Below are positions 4,210-16,853 of a stretch of 64,000 nt of DNA, piece by piece. The notes below the pieces were generated by a model. It had not been told where the DNA came from and did not search any database. It saw only the letters and a program-made list of their open reading frames with translations. Position 1 is the stretch's first letter; every line of letters starts with the position of its first letter. Location: the sequence record NC_100331.1; one strand, given 5' to 3'. The position numbers were made by a program, and so were the translations under genes. The DNA comes from Escherichia phage vB_EcoS_HASG4.

Positions 4210-4461
4210 TTACAAAACAGCTTCCCATTTTTCGTTGCGTTGAACAACCTTTACAACATCGCCGGATTTAACGCGAACGCTAAAAACGGTTTTGCCGTTG
4301 TTACTGCGTTCCGTTTCAGCGTATACCGCGTCGATTGTATCGAACGGCATAAGCGCCGCACCTTTAATGCGTTCGGCCTTTCCGGTTAACTCATCCGTTT
4401 TAGTAACGAAAGGAATAAAAACGGATTGACCAATTTTTGGCGCGGTAATAACGTTTTGCAT
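4210..4461 (-). CDS. hypothetical protein
   Basis: 83 aa ORF. Confidence 0.45.
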   Translation of the reverse strand: MQNVITAPKIGQSVFIPFVTKTDELTGKAERIKGAALMPFDTIDAVYAETERSNNGKTVFSVRVKSGDVVKVVQRNEKWEAVL

Positions 4462-4688
4462 AGTATAAACTCCTAGTTATTTGGGGATTATTCCGCATTA
4501 CCTGCTAGAAGGTAGCAGGTAATAAGTAACAATCCGCTCGCCAGTTTAACCAATTTAAAGAACTCCACGTAGGCCGCTATATCCCAGTTAGGGGGCGGGA
4601 TGCATTATGGTAAGCACCGACCGTCAAATTTTATCAAGTTATCGCTCTTATCGAACTGAGTACATCTTAAAACCTATCGGCTAGGTTG

Positions 4689-4892
4689 TCAAACGGTTTT
4701 TTGCAATTTTTTATGATTTTCTTTCAAGTCAATCATAATATTTCGCCAGATCATTTCTAGACCTTGCTGGCGACCTCTCTTGTACTGCGTGAATCGGTAT
4801 TTTACCGATCTTTGCGCTACTGTCAACAAATTTTTTGTTTTGCTATCTAGTGCCTTAATAGGCTTGCCAGTGATCAATAAAGTTTGTTTCAT
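4689..4892 (-). CDS. hypothetical basic protein
   Basis: 67 aa ORF. Confidence 0.3.
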   Translation of the reverse strand: MKQTLLITGKPIKALDSKTKNLLTVAQRSVKYRFTQYKRGRQQGLEMIWRNIMIDLKENHKKLQKTV

Positions 4893-5080
4893 ATCGTCGA
4901 TTCCTTATAATAGATAAGTTTACCGCCGATAGGCTTTAAGATGTACCCAATTTTTAAAGAGCGTGGCGGTAAACTTCCCGCCGTGTAGTTCGTCATTGCC
5001 GCCCTACGTGATAAATAATAGGGGATTCCCGAAAATGGCGCAACCTTATTTTTGTAAAGAAACGTAAAGACAAAATTCAC
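4889..5080 (-). CDS. hypothetical protein
   Basis: 63 aa ORF, overlaps previous stop. Confidence 0.25.
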   Translation of the reverse strand: MNFVFTFLYKNKVAPFSGIPYYLSRRAAMTNYTAGSLPPRSLKIGYILKPIGGKLIYYKESTI

Positions 5081-5685
5081 CGGACGGCGTGCGGTGACGG
5101 CCTAAAATTAAAAGAAACGGGCGCGCGAATACCACAAAACAAAGCAAATAGGCAAGTAATTTTTTCATTTATATTTGCTTTCCCCTACTTGACAAAATCT
5201 AAAAAGCTCGTGGTAGCGATAAACGGCTTATCCCCTTATGATGGGATGGCTAAAAACTTTATTGCGTTCTAGGGCGTTTTAGGCGGCTCATTTTCGATTT
5301 AACAAATATCTAACAAAAGCAAAATTGAAAAATAGTTGAAAAAGGTCTTGACTTTTAAAAATCAAGGGGCATTGCATTAATTTATAAAATAAATTAATTG
5401 ACTTTTATTTGTTGTTGTGTATTAGAAAGATAGCAAACTAATAATTACTAGAATGATAATCATGCTGGTGGATTGTAACGGCTTAAATTATTAGCAGACT
5501 ACTAATCCCGGAAAATCTCATTAGCCAACTAACTGTTTCATAAGTTATAATATACATATAAATTAATGAGAAATAATAATTATAAGAAAACGTAACCGAT
5601 AGGAATAATAACTATAAAAATAATCACTACTATAATAATAACTATAAGAAACTATCGGCCTAAGTGAGAACCACTATCATTTAAG

Positions 5686-5706
5686 TTATCCACAAAGTTA
5701 TCCACA
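5686..5706 (+). promoter_or_regulatory. two tandem DnaA-box consensus sites (TTATCCACA x2)
   Basis: gttatccacaaagttatccacagc read directly, in AT-rich 1 kb intergenic region. Confidence 0.6.
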
Positions 5707-6060
5707 GCACTTTTTGACTTGACACGATATGCGGCGATACAAGGACTTTTGCTCAGACTTACCCACAGGTTATCCTACTGTATAAATATACAAGGTAAAA
5801 AGATAGTGTTAACAACTGCAATCAATTTTAAGCGGCCTAAATCGCTTTCTAACGAGCAAAACGCTGTAGGGTAATATTAAAGTAAAGCCTCAACGTGTCG
5901 GCCTGGTGGCTTCGCCGTGTTTTGCTCTTTACTATACCGCTGCGCGGTTAGCATAAAAATAAGCGTTAGGCAAGGAAAATAAAAAGGTAAAATAATATTT
6001 GCCCCTAGAAAGAAAATACCTTTATCATTCACTCACCGATTAACGAGGGAGGCCGAACAA

Positions 6061-7053
6061 ATGAGGCTTTATAAACCAGATAACGCAACCGTCTTAAAAG
6101 GTGCATTGCGCAACCTGCTGGATGGTAGCAGAACAACCAGCATTAAACATTTTGTTTTCAATATTGAAACACTTCATCGTAATTTTCTTGATGATTACGA
6201 TGCTTATAATATGAATAGTTTTCTACCGTTATATAATCAAGGGGCAACGCTTGTTTTATATAATCAGGAATCTCACTTGCTTACTAGTCGAGGGCCAGAT
6301 ACTGATTTTATTATAGTGAAAGGCAGTACAGTAAAAGCCTATGATGCGGGGGCGGGCTTAGAAGTTTTCACGATAGAAAATTATGAGCCTTATGATAAGG
6401 ATCTTTATGACGTAGAAAATTTTCTCGATTCATTTTGGCGTTATTTATCAATTGGGTGGAATCGGTCGGATTATGACGGGTATCGTTTTGCGGCTGTAAT
6501 GGCTTTTGATGATAACGGTAATTTTTTGTTACCGTCGGAATTATACCCGTATGTATATAATGATTTAATAGAGGAGGCTGGTTTTACTTTCTGGAAAGAT
6601 GAAGATCAGCCTATTGACAATATAGAAAACCATGCTGTAAATTCTAACACTCAAAGCGTTAACACTCAAACTACTGAAAACAAAGGAAAAAATACCATGA
6701 CCAAGATCGCTAATATCGTTGCCGCTAATAAATCCGCTGTTGTAAATGCTGCAAAACTGGAAGCGGGTAAAATTGCACTGACTCAAATCACGAAAGTAGC
6801 GGCTAAAAAAGCGCCGTTTATGATTAAAGGTTATATTGATACGCCGATTGGTCGTGTAGTGATCGCTAACCTATTGAGTGTAGCGGTTGACCAGTACGCC
6901 CCAACTAACCAAAAGGCAAAAGCGGTAGCAGGCGCGGCTATGGAAGCGGCAATGCTGGAAATGGTGCAAAGTTTTAACATCGCTGAAATGATTGATGAAA
7001 TGGTAAAAGGTATCGATATTTCTACTTTTACCACTAACACCGAAAGCGAGTAA
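6061..7053 (+). CDS. hypothetical protein
   Basis: 330 aa; RBS GAGGGAGG upstream. Confidence 0.65.
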   Translation: MRLYKPDNATVLKGALRNLLDGSRTTSIKHFVFNIETLHRNFLDDYDAYNMNSFLPLYNQGATLVLYNQESHLLTSRGPDTDFIIVKGSTVKAYDAGAGLEVFTIENYEPYDKDLYDVENFLDSFWRYLSIGWNRSDYDGYRFAAVMAFDDNGNFLLPSELYPYVYNDLIEEAGFTFWKDEDQPIDNIENHAVNSNTQSVNTQTTENKGKNTMTKIANIVAANKSAVVNAAKLEAGKIALTQITKVAAKKAPFMIKGYIDTPIGRVVIANLLSVAVDQYAPTNQKAKAVAGAAMEAAMLEMVQSFNIAEMIDEMVKGIDISTFTTNTESE

Positions 7054-7118
7054 TAATATTTAGCGGGGATTATTTCCCCGCTTTACTATTCCCTTGTTAA
7101 CTAATAGGAGGCTAACTA

Positions 7119-7613
7119 ATGGCTGAGGAAAAATACGGCTTCTCGCTAGGGGAAGTGAGCACGGCTAAACACGATATGATCATTTTAGTTGATTGTCATA
7201 CTGGCTATTGCGGGGAAGGGAACACCGAAGAATATTTTGTTCCTGCTGGTACGGATCTGGACGCTTTAGCTCACGAAATGGCTATGGATAATGCTTCTCG
7301 TTTTGGCAGCGATGGCTATGAAGACGAGGATACTGGCGAATGGTATGAAAATGAAAACGTATACGCAAGTCTTTATCATTATCAGTTAAGTAAATCCGGC
7401 ACATATGTAAATGGCGGCGATCCTATTAATTCCGTTGTGAAATTAATTATTAAATATGGTGGCGTCGAGATAATTGATAACAAAGCGGTAATATATGCAA
7501 ACCGATTAAAACAGCTTGTTTATATTCCTGATAATACCCGATGGGAGGAATACGCTGTTTTGCATGACGAATTGAAACGATGTTTCAATATTGAAGCCCT
7601 ACAAGTAGTCTAA
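7119..7613 (+). CDS. hypothetical protein
   Basis: 164 aa; RBS AGGAGG. Confidence 0.65.
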   Translation: MAEEKYGFSLGEVSTAKHDMIILVDCHTGYCGEGNTEEYFVPAGTDLDALAHEMAMDNASRFGSDGYEDEDTGEWYENENVYASLYHYQLSKSGTYVNGGDPINSVVKLIIKYGGVEIIDNKAVIYANRLKQLVYIPDNTRWEEYAVLHDELKRCFNIEALQVV

Positions 7614-7718
7614 TGTAAAGTTTTGTAAAGGTCGCCTTTTATGGTGGCCTTTTTTGTTATAATGCCTTTACACCAAAACGGTGGATTGAAAATTTTCCCA
7701 AAAATTTGGAGGCTTAAA

Positions 7719-7949
7719 ATGGTTGCATACTCTTCTGCTAGTCATCTGTTTACCGCGCAAGGCTGGGTATCTAATCGCGTCATTATTCATGAAATGGTGC
7801 AGGAGTTCGGCATTGCTAAAACGTATAATACCATTCAGGAACTATATAACGCCGATAAAATCGATCAGCAAACGGCTGGCTTTTTGCTGGATACCCTGAA
7901 AGCTGAACATTGCACTAAAAAGCAAGCTGCAAAAATTGTCTTAATGTAA
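7719..7949 (+). CDS. hypothetical protein
   Basis: ORF 7641-7949 trimmed to internal ATG preceded by GGAGG. Confidence 0.5.
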   Translation: MVAYSSASHLFTAQGWVSNRVIIHEMVQEFGIAKTYNTIQELYNADKIDQQTAGFLLDTLKAEHCTKKQAAKIVLM

Positions 7950-7950
7950 T

Positions 7951-7985
7951 TAATAACGGGGGGGGGGTATTATATCCCCCGATAA
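7951..7985 (+). terminator. G10-tract hairpin (terminator-like)
   Basis: aataacggggggggggtattatatccccc; 10 G then 5 C. Confidence 0.4.
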
Positions 7986-8002
7986 CTAGGAGGCTATCAC
8001 AA

Positions 8003-8152
8003 ATGGTTATTTTTCGAGCTATTTTAGCGGGTATCTTGGGCGCTATTTTATCGTTATTTGCAATAGCTTTCGGTGTTCACGCCGTTATTATCGGCGCGGG
8101 TATCGCCGCATTTTCTTATCTGCTGGGCTGCATGACTAGTAAAGGAGAATAA
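8003..8152 (+). CDS. small hydrophobic peptide
   Basis: 49 aa, single TM-like helix, RBS AGGAGG. Confidence 0.45.
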   Translation: MVIFRAILAGILGAILSLFAIAFGVHAVIIGAGIAAFSYLLGCMTSKGE

Positions 8153-8154
8153 AA

Positions 8155-8367
8155 ATGATTCGTAACGTTTCCCTTGCACGTTCGAAAGGCTTTAGGCTGG
8201 TGGACGTTAACACGTTCGAGCGTGAAGATTGTAAAATCGAATATGTAGCACGTAACAAAAATGCCTTTCGTGTTACTGAGAAAAAATTCGACAAGCGCGG
8301 CAACGTGATCGCTGAAACAGTTAAACATTTTGCCACCTTTTATGCTGCGTTTCGTGGGGTATTATAA
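8155..8367 (+). CDS. hypothetical protein
   Basis: 70 aa; RBS AAAGGAGAA. Confidence 0.5.
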   Translation: MIRNVSLARSKGFRLVDVNTFEREDCKIEYVARNKNAFRVTEKKFDKRGNVIAETVKHFATFYAAFRGVL

Positions 8368-8368
8368 A

Positions 8369-8713
8369 ATGGTTATTTATGAAGGCAACCGCTTTGTTAC
8401 TAATTGCCGTCCGGCATTACTAGCAAACTACTTAAATCAGCTTTCCCCAGCTTATAAGGGCGTTATTAATATTTATGAGGGCAAGGCGCATTATAAAATC
8501 AATGCGGTCGTTGCCCGTGAACTAGCGTTTCAATTTTTGACCTTTGCATCTTGTGACGTTCAGGTCATGGGTGAGGCATTAATTGCAGAAAATGAAGATG
8601 ATTTTATTAATATTTTCCGCAAGATATGCACCGAGCGCCTGATCATGAAAGGCGCTTATATTCAATCCACTGCGGATAGTATTGAAACAGCGTTTCGAAA
8701 GGTGGCACAATGA
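8369..8713 (+). CDS. hypothetical protein
   Basis: ORF 8330-8713 trimmed to ATG abutting upstream stop. Confidence 0.5.
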   Translation: MVIYEGNRFVTNCRPALLANYLNQLSPAYKGVINIYEGKAHYKINAVVARELAFQFLTFASCDVQVMGEALIAENEDDFINIFRKICTERLIMKGAYIQSTADSIETAFRKVAQ

Positions 8714-8868
8714 AAAAGTTTTTAATAGCTGGTATGTTTCCTTTGTTGCCTTATGTAATTTGCTGGGCTTTATATGCTCATGGTGCTAGTGTTCCCGGTG
8801 TGGCTTCATTTGGTGTATCGGCTGGTTTTCTAACCGGACTATTGGCAAGCGTATATTTACGCAAATAA
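8710..8868 (+). CDS. small membrane peptide
   Basis: 52 aa hydrophobic; start overlaps upstream stop. Confidence 0.4.
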   Translation: MKKFLIAGMFPLLPYVICWALYAHGASVPGVASFGVSAGFLTGLLASVYLRK

Positions 8869-8886
8869 TTAATAACGGGAGTTATT

Positions 8887-9090
8887 ATGAGCAATAAAAT
8901 TATTGTAACCAAAATCAGTACAATGGTTGATGTTTTTTACGTGCCCGATACGCCGGAGAATCGGCAAGCGGTTGAGCGTGGCGAGTATGATAAAGTGATT
9001 TATGATCACGATGGTTATTATCAGCATTTGGCGGATTCCTACGGGGAGGAGGAAAAAATCACGCATCGACTACCGGAGGAGGATTTATGA
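8887..9090 (+). CDS. hypothetical protein
   Basis: 67 aa; RBS GGGAG. Confidence 0.5.
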   Translation: MSNKIIVTKISTMVDVFYVPDTPENRQAVERGEYDKVIYDHDGYYQHLADSYGEEEKITHRLPEEDL

Positions 9091-9240
9091 AACGATGGTT
9101 TAATCACTGGTATAAACGGTTTTTAGTACGCCGTCGCAAGTCTAGGCATCAAGATGAGTGGAGGGAGTGGGCAAAGCGTAACGGTTGCCCACTACTATAA
9201 TAATCACGGGGCGCAACTAGTAAGAAGTGCCCCCAATTCT

Positions 9241-9770
9241 CAAATGAGAATCATTCTCATTTGACCGCGCCCGCGATGATTAGCCTGCTAATGGTTAGGG
9301 TGTTACGTGTCGCCTTGTGTGATCGTTAGCGTGCTAACTAATTTTCAAGCCTCCTCCAATTTTCCCCTTGTTTTAGTATCCCCGCCAAAATTAAACGCGT
9401 TAGAATGCGATTCAGGACGTTTTAAGCCTATATTAGAATTATTCACTGCATAGGAATACTGTATATTTATACAGTAGAATAACCTGGGGATAAGTCTGTG
9501 GATAACGCTTCAAAATGGCTAGGGTTCTGTCAAGTCAAATCGTGCTGTTGATAAGTCTGTGGATAACTTAAATAACAGTGTTTCTCACTTCCGTTTTTAA
9601 ATGCGAATCATTATCATTCGCATTTCACTAGCTAACCGATAATCACTCCACTTTTTAAATGAGAATCATTTCACTTCTTGAATAGTTCTCATTCCCTTTC
9701 TTAAATGCAAATCATTATCATTCGCATTTCACTTTTTAAATGAGATTGATTCTCATTATCATTCGCATTC
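9241..9770. repeat. family of palindromes (gagaatcattctc / gcgaatcattatcattcgc)
   Basis: inverted repeats at ~9241, 9596, 9655, 9697, 9735 read directly. Confidence 0.7.
9489..9567. promoter_or_regulatory. two copies of gataagtctgtggataac, each with a DnaA-box complement TGTGGATAA
   Basis: 18-bp direct repeat at 9489-9506 and 9550-9567. Confidence 0.6.
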
Positions 9771-9800
9771 AGGCGAGCAAGGCAATTGCCCTGCGCTTTT

Positions 9801-10400
9801 GTGCAAATCCGACATTTGCCCCCATGGATTACGCGTGGGCATGTATGTGCGAATCCGACAATTTTTGGTAGTGTGCAAATCCGACCCGAAAAATTTTTAT
9901 AGTGTGCGAATCCGACAATGAATTTTCCTAAAAACTCCAGCAATCACGAACTGCGTTCGAATCCTGTGGAATTAGCTAGAGTATGTGCAAATCCGACATG
10001 TGTTGAGCTGTGCGAATCCGACAAGATTTTTGTGACTTCGATTGGAGGGTGTGTGATTGTATAGGTTTGAGGAGAAGATGAGAGAGCGAGAGAAATTTTG
10101 GGACTAGAAGGATGTGGGCGCAAGATTGGTGCGGAGCACCTGATTTGCGGGGATTTTGGGGGAGAGTTGAGATAATTTGGGAAGATTTGAGATAGGTGCA
10201 GAAAAAGTAAAATTTTATTAGCTAAATGGAGCAAAATAGCTTGACAAGTGAAAATTCTTGTGGCTCTAAAAACTCAGGCAATCATGGGCCTTCGGCCCGA
10301 AATAATGCTGCTATTTTCAGGAGAGTAAGAGTTCCTAAAAACTTAGGCGTTTGTGCAAATCCGACCATAAATTTCTAGAAACACAGTGTGCAAATCCGAC
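9801..10400 (+). repeat. GTGCRAATCCGAC direct repeats (8 copies; ninth at 12153)
   Basis: copies at 9801, 9847, 9873, 9903, 9985, 10010, 10353, 10388, same orientation, irregular spacing. Confidence 0.8.
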
Positions 10401-10936
10401 AGTAATTTCTGGAAATGTGTTTTCAAAAAATGTCTCCTAGAAATAACCGCCCTCCCTATAACCGCCCTGTATAGGAAAACCGGCCTAGGATATGTAACGT
10501 TAGAGAGAAACTGCCCTAGAATGTGAGAGTTTTCCCAGAAACTTAGGAGTCTAGAAGAAAGTATTGTGCCATCCTAGCAGATGAGCGGCAACAGGTGTAT
10601 CATCTTGAATGTAAATTATGTGGTCAAAAGTTTTACTTTTATTTTAAATATAAGATCCCCCAGGGTTCTCATATAGAGCTTTGCCCCCGCCAGAAGGTCT
10701 CGTGGTGTTTCTAGCAATTTATATTAAATTACTTATTAACTTGTCCTGTCGCTCCGTATCCTCCGCTACAAGTTAGTAATTTTAAATTACTGAACCACCA
10801 CACCTTCTGTGTGGCAACTCTAAATGGTTAATTCTATTAACTCATAGAGTTATGATAACATACATTTAGCTATCTGTCAACGACAGTTTGTATTTGAGTC
10901 TCGGTACAGGTATTGTGCACCGAGACATGCAGAGTA

Positions 10937-16259: not shown

Positions 16260-16853
16260 TTATACATTTATATCGCCACGTAATACAGCAGCTACATCTT
16301 CCCCTATTTGTAATACTTCGCCGGTAGTACAATTAACTACTCTATCATAACTAGTAAACTTACCAGACACAATATCCTCTAGCGGAATTGGAGTTTTACT
16401 CAATTCAAATGAGACATTAATATAACGTGGATCACGTAGGGAAGTAGTATGTACATGTCCGTGAATATTTAGTTTGCCACGAAGTTCATTGGGATGCAAA
16501 GGGCAGTGAGATAGCCAAAACTTTTTGCCACCTCCAGTCTGTTTGCCTAGAGCTTGAATATCGTCATAAACTTCCGCTAAGTCCCTAATACTCAGCCCTT
16601 GACGCTCCGCATCATGATTACCCATAATGAGTTGATTAGGGACATTGTGGATAACCGACTTTAATTTGGCCAGACCTTCACGACCTACTGCAATATCTCC
16701 TAGCAAAATAAGTTTTGTTCGTTTACCAATATGCTTGGACAAAGTATCTAGAATATACTCATCGTGCTCTTTCATGTTCTTAAACCACGGACGGAAACGT
16801 AGTGCTCCAGGGTGGTCTAAGTGCAAGTCTGACCAGAATTTAACCTTCATCAC
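16260..16853 (-). CDS. metallophosphoesterase
   Basis: 197 aa; DLHLD, GDIA, GNHD, GHVH motifs. Confidence 0.75.
   Translation of the reverse strand: MMKVKFWSDLHLDHPGALRFRPWFKNMKEHDEYILDTLSKHIGKRTKLILLGDIAVGREGLAKLKSVIHNVPNQLIMGNHDAERQGLSIRDLAEVYDDIQALGKQTGGGKKFWLSHCPLHPNELRGKLNIHGHVHTTSLRDPRYINVSFELSKTPIPLEDIVSGKFTSYDRVVNCTTGEVLQIGEDVAAVLRGDINV

What the first reader, a model, noticed from the sequence alone, without database searches (positions are those of the whole stretch)
5300..6060. AT-rich 0.8-kb intergenic region with tandem DnaA boxes and short direct repeats
Two perfect TTATCCACA boxes 3 bp apart (5686-5706), aataactataa-type repeats and promoter-like elements lie between divergently oriented pre-early gene sets. 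This could be a divergent control region using host DnaA, or an origin-like element.
Basis: seen in the sequence. Interest (0 to 1): 0.4.

Follow-up and report, generated by a model that had tools for sequence, protein, structure and literature searches.

The report
T5 repeat module: DnaA plus LexA sites
The tandem DnaA boxes are real, but they belong to an already described 131-bp repeat in the first-injected DNA of T5-like phages; I also found that this repeat carries a near-consensus binding site for the host SOS repressor LexA, which no paper I could search mentions.

Summary
Two perfect TTATCCACA boxes lie 3 bp apart at 5686-5706, in an AT-rich, non-coding, roughly 1-kb tract between divergent pre-early genes of a T5-like phage.

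They are not a stand-alone control region. They are boxes 1-2 of a 131-bp module (5662-5792), which is Davison's "IRC-spacer-IRD". An inverted copy lies at 9460-9590, next to the injection stop signal. The paired DnaA boxes with a 3-bp spacer are already published.

The module is fixed in length and occurs in about 540 phage genomes, from Escherichia to Vibrio hosts. Variation in its boxes follows the DnaA consensus.

New here: the most conserved part of the module is an SOS (LexA) box. The copy at 9457-9476 scores 25.4 bits, higher than any of 18 genuine E. coli boxes. The copy inside the finding (5776-5795) is degenerate at 16.5 bits.

The boxes do not overlap the mapped promoters; P11 lies about 300 bp away. 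The origin reading fails: no GATC cluster, no 13-mers, and T5 with this copy deleted is viable.

Most likely the module is an accessory platform that binds host DnaA and LexA on first-step-transfer DNA. Binding and function are untested.

The parts
5081..6060 (.). Non-coding, AT-rich divergent intergenic tract of the left terminal repeat. It corresponds to T5 'Repeat Regions 1+2', which are contiguous here because the hegG homing-endonuclease insertion of T5 is absent.
   Evidence: ORF list. GC 0.348 against 0.392 for the window. Homology to T5 4680-5420 and 6098-6500. The two 51-aa ORFs inside it have no PHROG match. No Rfam family.
5522..5551 (+). Predicted sigma-70 promoter-like site, TAGCCA-18-TATAAT, reading rightward towards the module. 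Not experimentally mapped.
   Evidence: 10 of 12 matches. Conserved in all 7 aligned genomes.
5572..5651 (+). They are a lineage-specific tandem triplication.
   Evidence: Family D7. Three copies in the window, Spc35 and pork27; one copy in EPS7, sal2, EscoHU1 and saus176N.
5662..5792 (+). Left copy of the 131-bp module (Davison's IRC-spacer-IRD).
   Evidence: Inverted repeats I1 and I2 with 9460-9590. 78% identity to T5 6098-6227. Alignment of 29 copies. Nomenclature from bioRxiv 10.1101/866236.
5686..5694 (+). DnaA box 1, TTATCCACA (perfect).
5698..5706 (+). DnaA box 2, TTATCCACA (perfect), 3 bp after box 1.
5719..5724 (+). Conserved TTGACA hexamer in the 'spacer'. It has no matching -10 element and its function is unknown.
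   Evidence: Present as TTGAC(A/G/T) in 27 of 29 copies.
5747..5755 (+). DnaA box 3, TTTTGCTCA (1 mismatch to TTWTNCACA; degenerate in this phage).
5759..5767 (+). DnaA box 4, TTACCCACA (1 mismatch), preceded by the almost invariant GAC spacer.
5770..5778 (+). Box-5-like TTATCCTAC, 2 bp after box 4 and overlapping the SOS-like box by 3 nt. Almost invariant in the family.
   Evidence: TTATYCTAC in 56 of 58 distinct copies.
5776..5795. SOS (LexA)-box-like 20-mer TACTGTATAAATATACAAGG. The right half-site is degraded (ACAA instead of ACAG). At 16.5 bits it is the weakest of the 29 copies examined.
   Evidence: Matrix built from 18 E. coli SOS boxes. Second-best site in the 64-kb window.
5976..6054 (+). 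Homologue of the T5 pre-early promoter upstream of gene 011 (P11), with -35 TTGCCC at 5999-6004 and -10 TATCAT at 6023-6028.
   Evidence: 92.5% identity to the T5 annotated promoter 6411-6489. Conserved. P11 was validated by primer extension in T5 (PMC7472727).
6061..7053 (+). Gene-011 homologue (DUF7566), the first gene of the rightward pre-early block.
   Evidence: Pfam E = 3e-113.
4689..4892 (-). hdi / T5.008 homologue (DUF7416), from the leftward pre-early set.
   Evidence: Pfam E = 4e-37. T5 annotation.
9460..9590 (-). Right, inverted copy of the module (IRD'-spacer-IRC'), adjacent to the injection stop signal. DnaA boxes on the minus strand: 9558-9566 TTATCCACA, 9546-9554 TTATCAACA, 9497-9505 TTATCCACA, 9485-9493 TTATCCCCA.
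   Evidence: The T5 iss annotation 9140-10149 maps here.
9457..9476 (.). Near-consensus SOS (LexA) box TACTGTATATTTATACAGTA, 25.4 bits.
   Evidence: Exceeds all 18 real E. coli boxes in leave-one-out scoring (best 23.6) and the maximum of 30 shuffled windows (18.3). It is the only AT-rich CTGT-N8-ACAG in the window.

Best explanation
What it is: the finding is the left copy of a conserved 131-bp cis-acting module of T5-like phages, known as IRC-spacer-IRD. It lies in the AT-rich divergent intergenic region of the first-step-transfer (FST) DNA.

Shown: the module is a fixed-geometry array of binding-site-like sequences for two host proteins. It has two tandem pairs of same-orientation DnaA boxes, each pair 3 bp apart, with pair starts 61 bp apart. 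An SOS (LexA) operator abuts the second pair. An inverted copy sits 3.7 kb away beside the injection stop signal (iss), so the two copies bracket the variable rightward pre-early gene block.

Inferred mechanism: within seconds of entry, host DnaA binds the module. Strong outer boxes would nucleate filling of the weaker inner boxes. LexA also binds, strongly at the iss-proximal copy and weakly or not at all at this phage's degenerate left copy. The result is a nucleoprotein complex on the FST DNA. That complex most likely modulates events on the FST DNA. It could act as a transcriptional roadblock or operator for read-through or module-embedded promoters. It could also contribute to holding or organising the DNA at the injection stop, as Davison proposed for DnaA.

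The left copy is accessory, not essential, and it is not a replication origin.
For: Identity and duplication:
- Inverted repeats 5662-5724/9528-9590 and 5747-5792/9460-9505.
- Homology to the T5 modules and a match to the published description.

Beyond chance:
- 5 perfect boxes against 0.58 expected, 4 of them in the modules.

Conservation:
- 531-546 phage records carry the module, mostly two copies per terminal repeat.
- Module length is invariant in 37 of 38 distinct IMG/VR copies. Where indels occur, in the iss-proximal copies of the Klebsiella phages, a 1-nt insertion is offset by a 1-nt deletion.

DnaA as the ligand:
- In 232 box instances the most variable position is 5 (N in the consensus).
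- Position 3 varies almost only between A and T (W in the consensus), and the other positions are strongly conserved.
- The 9+3+9 pair geometry recurs in at least 120 unrelated viral contigs, often inside larger box clusters.

LexA as a ligand:
- The 20-mer scores 19.8-25.4 bits in 28 of the 29 panel copies. The exception is this window's left copy, at 16.5 bits.
- Real SOS boxes score 8.9-23.6 bits.
- It is the most conserved stretch of the module.

A host factor rather than a phage factor:
- Vibrio phage Chazly21, from a different subfamily, keeps a 3-bp-spaced DnaA pair next to a 23.8-bit SOS box although the surrounding sequence has diverged.

Accessory role of the left copy:
- The T5 deletion of about 5390-9160 is viable with small plaques.
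- NBEco001 lacks the left copy, and the Klebsiella phages have a truncated one.
Against: - No binding of DnaA or LexA to this DNA has ever been shown. A 2023 paper states that experimental studies of these sites are lacking (PMC10644984).
- Position 6 of the boxes splits C/A (156 against 66). The strict consensus does not allow this, so about a third of the boxes may be very weak sites.
- The SOS-like 20-mer is more invariant than LexA binding requires, central spacer included. Another ligand or a promoter -10 element could be what is selected.
- No robust conserved promoter overlaps the operator. The candidates score 8-10 of 12 and are poorly conserved.
- T5-like phages carrying the module are propagated on DH5alpha. 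From general knowledge that strain is recA1, so any function cannot depend on RecA-mediated LexA cleavage.
- In this window the left SOS box is degraded and boxes 3 and 4 are imperfect. This particular copy may be decaying.
Confidence: 0.55

Rival explanations
1. Injection-stop anchor (Davison's model). Membrane-associated DnaA binds the eight boxes of both modules as the DNA enters. This physically arrests transfer at about 8% of the genome, and A1/A2 later cut the DNA free. The left copy would be a secondary attachment point.
For: The universal copy lies directly left of the mapped shear point and iss. A second, unexplained FST band of about 5.8 kb in old gels would coincide with the left copy. 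Box geometry is highly conserved.
Against: The model is purely sequence-based and untested. It does not explain the even more conserved SOS box, since LexA is not membrane-bound. The left copy is dispensable. It is unclear how a cytoplasmic protein that binds DNA already inside the cell would stop DNA still in the tail.
Confidence: 0.15
2. Host-repressed promoter/operator. Each module carries an inward-facing promoter, with -35 in box 4 (TTATCC), a 16-nt spacer, and -10 TATAAA or TATATT inside the palindrome. DnaA and LexA co-repress it. It fires when A1-driven host DNA degradation activates RecA and LexA is cleaved. It then adds sense transcription of the block from one side and antisense transcription from the other.
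For: A consensus-strength LexA operator normally means repression of an overlapping promoter. The -10-like sequence is invariant, and the AA/TT centre keeps 5 of 6 matches either way. After the block inversion seen in the Klebsiella and Pectobacterium phages, one module still faces the 5' end of the gene-011 homologue. A minus-strand TTAACA-16-TATATT site also overlaps the palindrome.
Against: The -35 matches only 3 of 6, so the promoter falls below the scan threshold. No transcription start has been mapped here; the papers I read name P11, P_H22 and P_D/E20 as the mapped pre-early promoters. The phages grow on a recA1 host (plus general knowledge).
Confidence: 0.15
3. Binding sites for a phage protein, for example the A2 DNA-binding protein or A1. 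On this view the resemblance to host DnaA and LexA sites is coincidental, and the palindrome is a cleavage or recognition site, as Davison suggested for A1/A2.
For: A1 and A2 are required for second-step transfer, and A2 is annotated as a DNA-binding protein. The whole 20-mer, including its centre, is more conserved than LexA needs.
Against: The sites sit on the host consensus in phages whose A2 is only 41-64% identical to the window's, and a Vibrio phage keeps them as well. A co-evolving phage protein and its site would be expected to drift. The variation matches DnaA's N and W positions. A 19-of-20 match to the LexA consensus by coincidence is very unlikely.
Confidence: 0.08
4. Replication origin or origin-like element: DnaA boxes next to an AT-rich unwinding region, with direct repeats acting as iterons.
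For: Tandem DnaA boxes adjoin an 87% AT stretch at 5530-5595 and three direct repeats.
Against: No GATC in 980 bp and no 13-mer-like repeats. The repeats are a recent triplication absent from Epseptimavirus. T5 origins map near the genome centre, and the replication genes are not on the FST DNA. Deleting this copy leaves a viable phage, and NBEco001 lacks it.
Confidence: 0.03
5. Recombination substrate only. The inverted repeats persist because they mediate inversion or gene conversion of the variable block, and the box-like motifs are incidental.
For: The block is inverted in Sugarlandvirus and Hongcheonvirus while the modules stay in place. The palindrome centre flips AA/TT with no intermediates.
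Against: Homologous recombination needs no specific sequence, yet length and motif positions are conserved far beyond the flanks, in both copies and across subfamilies. NBEco001 keeps the iss-proximal copy alone.
Confidence: 0.05

Closest known systems
T5 'IRC-spacer-IRD' (Repeat Region 2) and 'IRD'-spacer-IRC'' (Repeat Region 3, iss). Nomenclature attributed to Wang et al. by Davison, bioRxiv 10.1101/866236 (2020).
   Same: It is the same element: 131 bp, the same position between the left and right pre-early blocks, an inverted partner next to iss, eight DnaA or DnaA-like boxes in pairs 3 bp apart, and a constant spacer.
   Different: [quoted passage not shown] Boxes 1 and 2 are both perfect here, whereas T5's box 2 is damaged. 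Boxes 3 and 4 and the palindrome are degraded. The published description treats the palindrome only as a palindrome or possible restriction site and never mentions LexA, SOS or promoters.
Chromosomal DnaA-box clusters (oriC arrays, datA, DARS, dnaA promoter). Named from general knowledge; not tested here.
   Same: Clustered, same-orientation 9-mers in which strong sites flank weaker ones at about one helical turn pitch. The consensus and its degeneracy match.
   Different: The spacer is 3 bp, whereas from memory the oriC low-affinity arrays use 2 bp. There is no DUE, no 13-mers and no GATC cluster. There is no similarity to any E. coli chromosome or plasmid sequence. The module lies on a virulent phage's pre-early DNA.
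LexA operators used by mobile elements and temperate phages, for example GIL01 promoter P1 (PMC4551915), and the review 'The use and abuse of LexA by mobile genetic elements', which is cited by the papers found.
   Same: A host LexA box on phage DNA. The score is equal to or above that of chromosomal SOS boxes.
   Different: Those cases are temperate or integrative elements where LexA gates induction from a defined promoter. Here the phage is strictly virulent, no overlapping promoter is established, and the box is fused to DnaA boxes and duplicated in inverted orientation. None of 127 DnaA-box pairs in other viral contigs has an SOS-like box nearby.
Tandem DnaA boxes at plasmid or prophage-plasmid origins (P1 oriR, F oriS, RK2 oriV). 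Named from memory; not tested here.
   Same: Pairs of adjacent DnaA boxes at the edge of an AT-rich region with direct repeats.
   Different: There is no initiator gene or conserved iterons, and the direct repeats are a recent triplication. The element is dispensable and is not where T5 replication starts.

Membership tests
T5-family IRC-spacer-IRD module | About 131-bp sequence homologous to the T5 module | tested here: met
   Window 5662-5792 against T5 6098-6227: 78% identity over 130 nt. 100% identity to EASG3.
T5-family IRC-spacer-IRD module | Inverted partner copy next to the injection stop signal in the same terminal repeat | tested here: met
   9460-9590, 77% identity in inverted orientation. 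It lies in the region homologous to T5 iss 9140-10149.
T5-family IRC-spacer-IRD module | Four DnaA or DnaA-like boxes per copy, in two pairs separated by 3 bp, with constant spacing between the pairs | tested here: met
   Boxes at 5686, 5698, 5747 and 5759. Length is invariant across copies.
DnaA-box cluster (functional DnaA binding site) | 9-mers matching TTWTNCACA | tested here: met
   2 perfect boxes and 2 with one mismatch in the left copy; 2 perfect and 2 with one mismatch in the right copy.
DnaA-box cluster (functional DnaA binding site) | Conservation in relatives, with variation confined to the degenerate consensus positions | tested here: inconclusive
   Positions 5 (N) and 3 (W) behave as expected. 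Position 6 is C in 156 and A in 66 of 232 boxes, which the strict consensus does not allow.
DnaA-box cluster (functional DnaA binding site) | DnaA protein binds in vitro or in vivo | not testable with these tools
   No binding data exist. PMC10644984 says experimental studies are lacking.
LexA operator (SOS box) | CTGT-N8-ACAG palindrome with an AT-rich spacer | tested here: inconclusive
   The right copy 9459-9474 meets it exactly. The left copy inside the finding is CTGT-N8-ACAA, so one half-site is broken. The left copies of the other panel phages have ACAG.
LexA operator (SOS box) | Score within the range of experimentally SOS-induced E. coli boxes | tested here: met
   25.4 bits (right copy) and 16.5 bits (left copy), against 8.9-23.6 bits for 18 real boxes in leave-one-out scoring. 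The shuffle maximum was 18.3.
LexA operator (SOS box) | Overlaps or abuts a promoter that it represses | tested here: inconclusive
   Only sub-threshold or poorly conserved promoter-like sites overlap it. No transcription start has been mapped.
LexA operator (SOS box) | LexA binding and SOS-dependent derepression | not testable with these tools
   No paper in the searchable library links T5-like phages with LexA.
oriC-type or plasmid-type replication origin | AT-rich unwinding element with 13-mer repeats and a GATC cluster beside the DnaA boxes | tested here: not met
   0 GATC in 980 bp against 3.1 per kb in the window. No match to GATCTNTTNTTTT with up to 2 mismatches.
oriC-type or plasmid-type replication origin | Required for replication, or a mapped initiation site | tested here: not met
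   The T5 deletion of about 5390-9160 is viable. NBEco001 lacks the copy. Origins are reported near the genome centre.
Divergent promoter/operator region controlled by DnaA | Boxes overlap or lie within a few tens of bp of the divergent promoters | tested here: not met
   The P11 homologue -35 at 5999 is 293 bp from box 2. The P_H22 and P_D/E20 homologues are more than 850 bp to the left. Only an unvalidated predicted promoter (5522-5551) lies about 135 bp upstream.

The most novel reading that the evidence does not exclude
The T5-family module may be a dual host-factor sensor on the first DNA to enter the cell. A consensus-strength LexA operator, conserved from Escherichia to Vibrio T5-like phages and fused to a DnaA-box array, would be occupied by LexA at entry. 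It would then regulate a phage process at or near the injection stop signal, such as a module-embedded or read-through transcript, pre-early shut-off, or the timing of second-step transfer. That would link the process to the A1-driven destruction of host DNA through RecA-dependent LexA cleavage. An SOS operator with a function in a strictly virulent phage, sitting at the 60-year-old unexplained T5 injection stop, would be new.
Probability: 0.3. Interest if true: 0.75.

Novelty: already known. Interest (0 to 1): 0.4.

Why it matters
The finding as given, tandem DnaA boxes in the pre-early intergenic region, is a published feature of T5-like phages and adds only one more member.

Two things matter more:
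- The left copy is demonstrably dispensable and is not an origin, which narrows the hypotheses.
- The most conserved piece of the module is a LexA operator stronger than any of the 18 E. coli SOS boxes scored, and I found no report of this.

How T5 stops and restarts DNA injection has been open since the 1960s, and the cis-acting stop signal has never been dissected. Two named host proteins with clean genetics (lexA(Def), lexA(Ind-), recA, dnaA(ts) or depletion) and defined sites now give simple experiments. These use existing T5 genome-engineering tools.

Tried and rejected
- Known RNA family: Rfam at E <= 1 gave only two sub-threshold chance hits. Rejected.
- Hidden protein genes: the 51-aa ORFs at 5719-5874 (+) and 5877-6032 (-) have no PHROG match and are not conserved as ORFs. 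Rejected.
- Cellular or plasmid origin of the module: no BLAST match in 5,426 E. coli genomes or 72,556 plasmids.
- oriC-type origin: no GATC cluster and no 13-mers. Rejected.
- Iterons: the direct repeats are a lineage-specific triplication. Rejected as a conserved functional array.
- The conserved TTGACA in the spacer as a -35 element: no -10 at 16-18 nt on either strand in any copy, by inspection of the alignment. Left unexplained.
- A SOS-timed restart of injection that is essential: unlikely, because relatives carrying the module are grown on DH5alpha, which is recA1 from general knowledge.
- Prior art on LexA: Davison 2015 (PMC4743489) is not held. I did not try Wang et al. 2005 or Heusterspreute et al. 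1987; Davison's preprint cites work on these repeats only by reference number and its reference list is not held. I therefore cannot exclude an earlier mention of a LexA site.
- Exact P11 start site: not given in the text of PMC7472727.
Full report
**1. Where we are**

The window is the left part of a T5-like genome (Demerecviridae). Region 5100-6100 matches 445 phage records. The best full-length matches are about 90% identical: Escherichia phage EASG3, chee24-type phages and Salmonella phage Shivani. In those records the region lies inside the annotated left terminal repeat, the first-step-transfer (FST) DNA. The 161 nt around the boxes are 100% identical to EASG3.

Gene order matches T5. 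The genes dmp, A1, A2 and an hdi-like gene (DUF7416, 4689-4892) are on the minus strand. A gene-011-like gene (DUF7566, 6061-7053) and a block of small genes are on the plus strand. T5's hegG homing endonuclease is absent.

**2. The observation**

- The window has five perfect boxes against 0.58 expected; 0 of 100 shuffles reached five.
- The tract 5081-6060 has no credible ORF. Its GC is 0.348 against 0.392 for the window, falling to 0.27 locally.
- The 'aataactataa' repeats are three copies of an 18-mer.

**3. What the boxes belong to**

The repeat search shows that 5662-5792 is an inverted copy of 9460-9590: two gapless arms of 63 and 46 nt at 87%, and 77% over 131 nt. The second copy carries the other perfect boxes, and they have the same 12-bp pitch.

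This is the element that J. Davison (bioRxiv 10.1101/866236) calls IRC-spacer-IRD, in Repeat Region 2. Its partner IRD'-spacer-IRC' lies in Repeat Region 3, beside the injection stop signal. His preprint already reports eight DnaA or DnaA-like boxes 'always in pairs separated by 3 bp', a constant 52-bp spacer, and conservation in 25 T5-like phages. It proposes that membrane-bound DnaA arrests DNA entry. A 2023 paper on BF23 notes that experimental tests of these sites are lacking. The core of the finding is therefore already known.

**4. Conservation**

The module occurs in 531 phage records. Its 60-nt core occurs in 546, including 81 Klebsiella and 16 Vibrio phages.

I aligned 29 copies from 15 phages and pooled 58 distinct copies. 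In module orientation the architecture is:

- GTGAGAAMCACT..ATTTAAG
- box 1, 3 bp, box 2
- GCAC..TTGACA, then about 22 variable nt
- box 3, GAC, box 4
- GG, TTATYCTAC, overlapping TACTGTATAWWTATACAG

Length is invariant. Where indels occur, in the iss-proximal copies of the Klebsiella phages, a +1 is compensated by a -1.

Across 232 box instances the information per position is 1.87, 2.0, 1.55 (almost only A or T), 1.76, 0.67, 0.87, 1.47, 1.63 and 1.68 bits. The freest position is the N of TTWTNCACA, and position 3 behaves as W. Position 6 splits C:A at 156:66, which defines a weaker TTAT(C/T)AACA class found mostly in the inner boxes 2 and 3.

The 9+3+9 tandem geometry is common in unrelated viral contigs, with at least 120 stretches, often inside larger clusters. 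It looks like a general DnaA-array arrangement.

**5. A feature not in the finding or in the literature I could search**

The most conserved stretch of the module is a CTGT-N8-ACAG palindrome. I built a symmetric matrix from the 18 UV-induced E. coli SOS boxes in PMC3009722, Table 4. The results were:

- Window 9457-9476 (TACTGTATATTTATACAGTA) scores 25.4 bits.
- The best real box scores 23.6 bits in leave-one-out scoring, and the consensus scores 26.8.
- The maximum across 30 shuffled 64-kb windows is 18.3 bits.
- The copy inside the finding (5776-5795) scores 16.5 bits. It is second best in the window, but its right half-site is ACAA. It is the weakest of the 29 copies.
- The other 28 copies score 19.8-25.4 bits. 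Nearly every iss-proximal copy is the 25.4-bit form.

In Vibrio phage Chazly21, from another subfamily, the flanking sequence has diverged. A TTATCCACA-ACC-TTATCCACC pair still sits 7 nt from TACTGTATAAATATACAGTG, which scores 23.8 bits. Sites that stay on the host consensus across such distances point to host proteins, not a co-evolving phage protein.

None of 127 DnaA pairs in other viral contigs has an SOS-like box of at least 16 bits within 150 nt.

Davison's preprint contains no occurrence of 'LexA', 'SOS' or 'promoter'. Three literature searches linking T5 with LexA found nothing relevant. Davison 2015 is not held in the library, and I did not check Wang 2005 or Heusterspreute 1987, so an earlier mention cannot be excluded.

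**6. Relation to promoters**

T5 annotation and two papers identify P_D/E20, P_H22 and P11 (upstream of gene 011) as the experimentally characterised pre-early promoters. They map to these window coordinates:

- P_D/E20: 4318-4638
- P_H22: 4774-4838
- P11: 5976-6054, at 92.5% identity, with -35 TTGCCC at 5999 and -10 TATCAT at 6023

The boxes are therefore about 300 bp from P11 and more than 850 bp from the leftward promoters.

A conserved but unvalidated plus-strand TAGCCA-18-TATAAT lies at 5522-5551. It would send transcripts through the module. Promoter-like sequences overlapping the palindrome exist on both strands, but they are weak or poorly conserved.

**7. Essentiality and the origin idea**

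A 2026 preprint made T5 'hegG to 017' deletions. I mapped their primers, and the deletion spans T5 about 5390-9160. It removes the left module and P11 and keeps the iss-proximal module. The phage is viable with smaller plaques.

NBEco001 naturally lacks the left copy, and the Klebsiella phages carry a truncated one.

There is no GATC in 980 bp and no oriC-type 13-mer. The direct repeats are a triplication absent from Epseptimavirus. The literature quoted by Davison places T5 origins near the genome centre.

The origin reading is rejected for this copy.

**8. Mechanism**

Shown:
- A fixed-geometry, family-wide module of DnaA-type and LexA-type sites.
- It is duplicated in inverted orientation around the variable right-hand pre-early block.
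- The left copy is dispensable.

Inferred:
- Host DnaA and LexA load onto the FST DNA on entry and form a nucleoprotein complex.
- The complex modulates transcription through or from the module, or contributes to DNA organisation at the injection stop, or both.

I rate this generic 'host-factor platform' reading at about 0.55. The specific sub-models, namely Davison's membrane anchor, a LexA/DnaA-repressed promoter, phage-protein sites, recombination only, and an origin, are listed as rivals with lower weights. An essential RecA-dependent switch is unlikely, because relatives are propagated on DH5alpha (recA1 from general knowledge).

**9. Verdict**

The element itself is already described.

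The added value is fourfold:
- The LexA operator.
- The evidence that the left copy is dispensable.
- The promoter map.
- Homology evidence that the block between the copies has been inverted in some genera.

Noticed in passing
window 6061-9090, compared with L010, L011, L012 and L013: The gene block between the two modules (the gene-011-like and 164-aa genes) is co-oriented with A2 in Klebsiella Sugarlandvirus and Pectobacterium DU_PP_V. That is inverted relative to Tequintavirus and Epseptimavirus, while the modules keep their places. Davison described this block as 'replaced by other sequences read in the opposite direction'. tblastn shows the genes are homologues (31-61% identity), so this is an inversion between the inverted repeats.
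   Followed up: partly
window 5783-5788 and 9465-9470; loci L016-L060: The two central bases of the SOS-like palindrome are AA (28) or TT (10) in 38 distinct copies, never AT, TA or anything else. The state differs between the left and right copies of some phages. This looks like flipping of the near-palindrome by recombination, not point mutation.
   Followed up: partly
window 9585-9770 and 9795-10410: To the right of the second module lie nested palindromes (AAATGCGAATCATTATCATTCGCATTT, three related copies). Beyond them are seven to ten direct repeats of TGTGC(A/G)AATCCGAC, around the position where T5's terminal repeat ends (T5 10219). These are the known iss repeats. Their position suggests a role in terminase or end recognition, which I did not test.
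   Followed up: no
window 5046-5168 (-): A small ORF (MKKLLAYLLCFVVFARPF..., 40 aa) has a start codon and a hydrophobic N-terminus conserved in all seven aligned genomes, though its length varies. It is not annotated in T5 or EASG3, and it is preceded by a TTGTCA-17-ATAAAT promoter-like site on the minus strand. It may be an unannotated small membrane peptide.
   Followed up: partly
L009 (NBEco001) 9459-9545: NBEco001 has only a 29-aa remnant of the gene-011 homologue and lacks the left module entirely. This is a natural deletion comparable to the engineered T5 hegG-017 deletion.
   Followed up: partly
window 16646-16654 (-): A fifth perfect TTATCCACA box, isolated and outside the terminal repeat. 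I did not examine its context.
   Followed up: no
L086 2735-2850 (IMG/VR contig of 44 kb): An unrelated phage contig has six DnaA boxes upstream of a gene. They include two 3-bp-spaced pairs exactly 61 bp apart, the same distance as box 1 to box 3 in the T5 module, but there is no SOS-like box.
   Followed up: partly
window 5081-6060 and 9200-10500: GATC is absent from the 980-bp intergenic tract and occurs once in the 1.3-kb iss region, against 3.1 per kb in the window overall.
   Followed up: no
phage records: A few records labelled Listeria or Campylobacter phage, for example the 3,447-bp OR848837.1, carry the T5-type module at 95% identity. They are probably mislabelled or contaminant sequences.
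   Followed up: no
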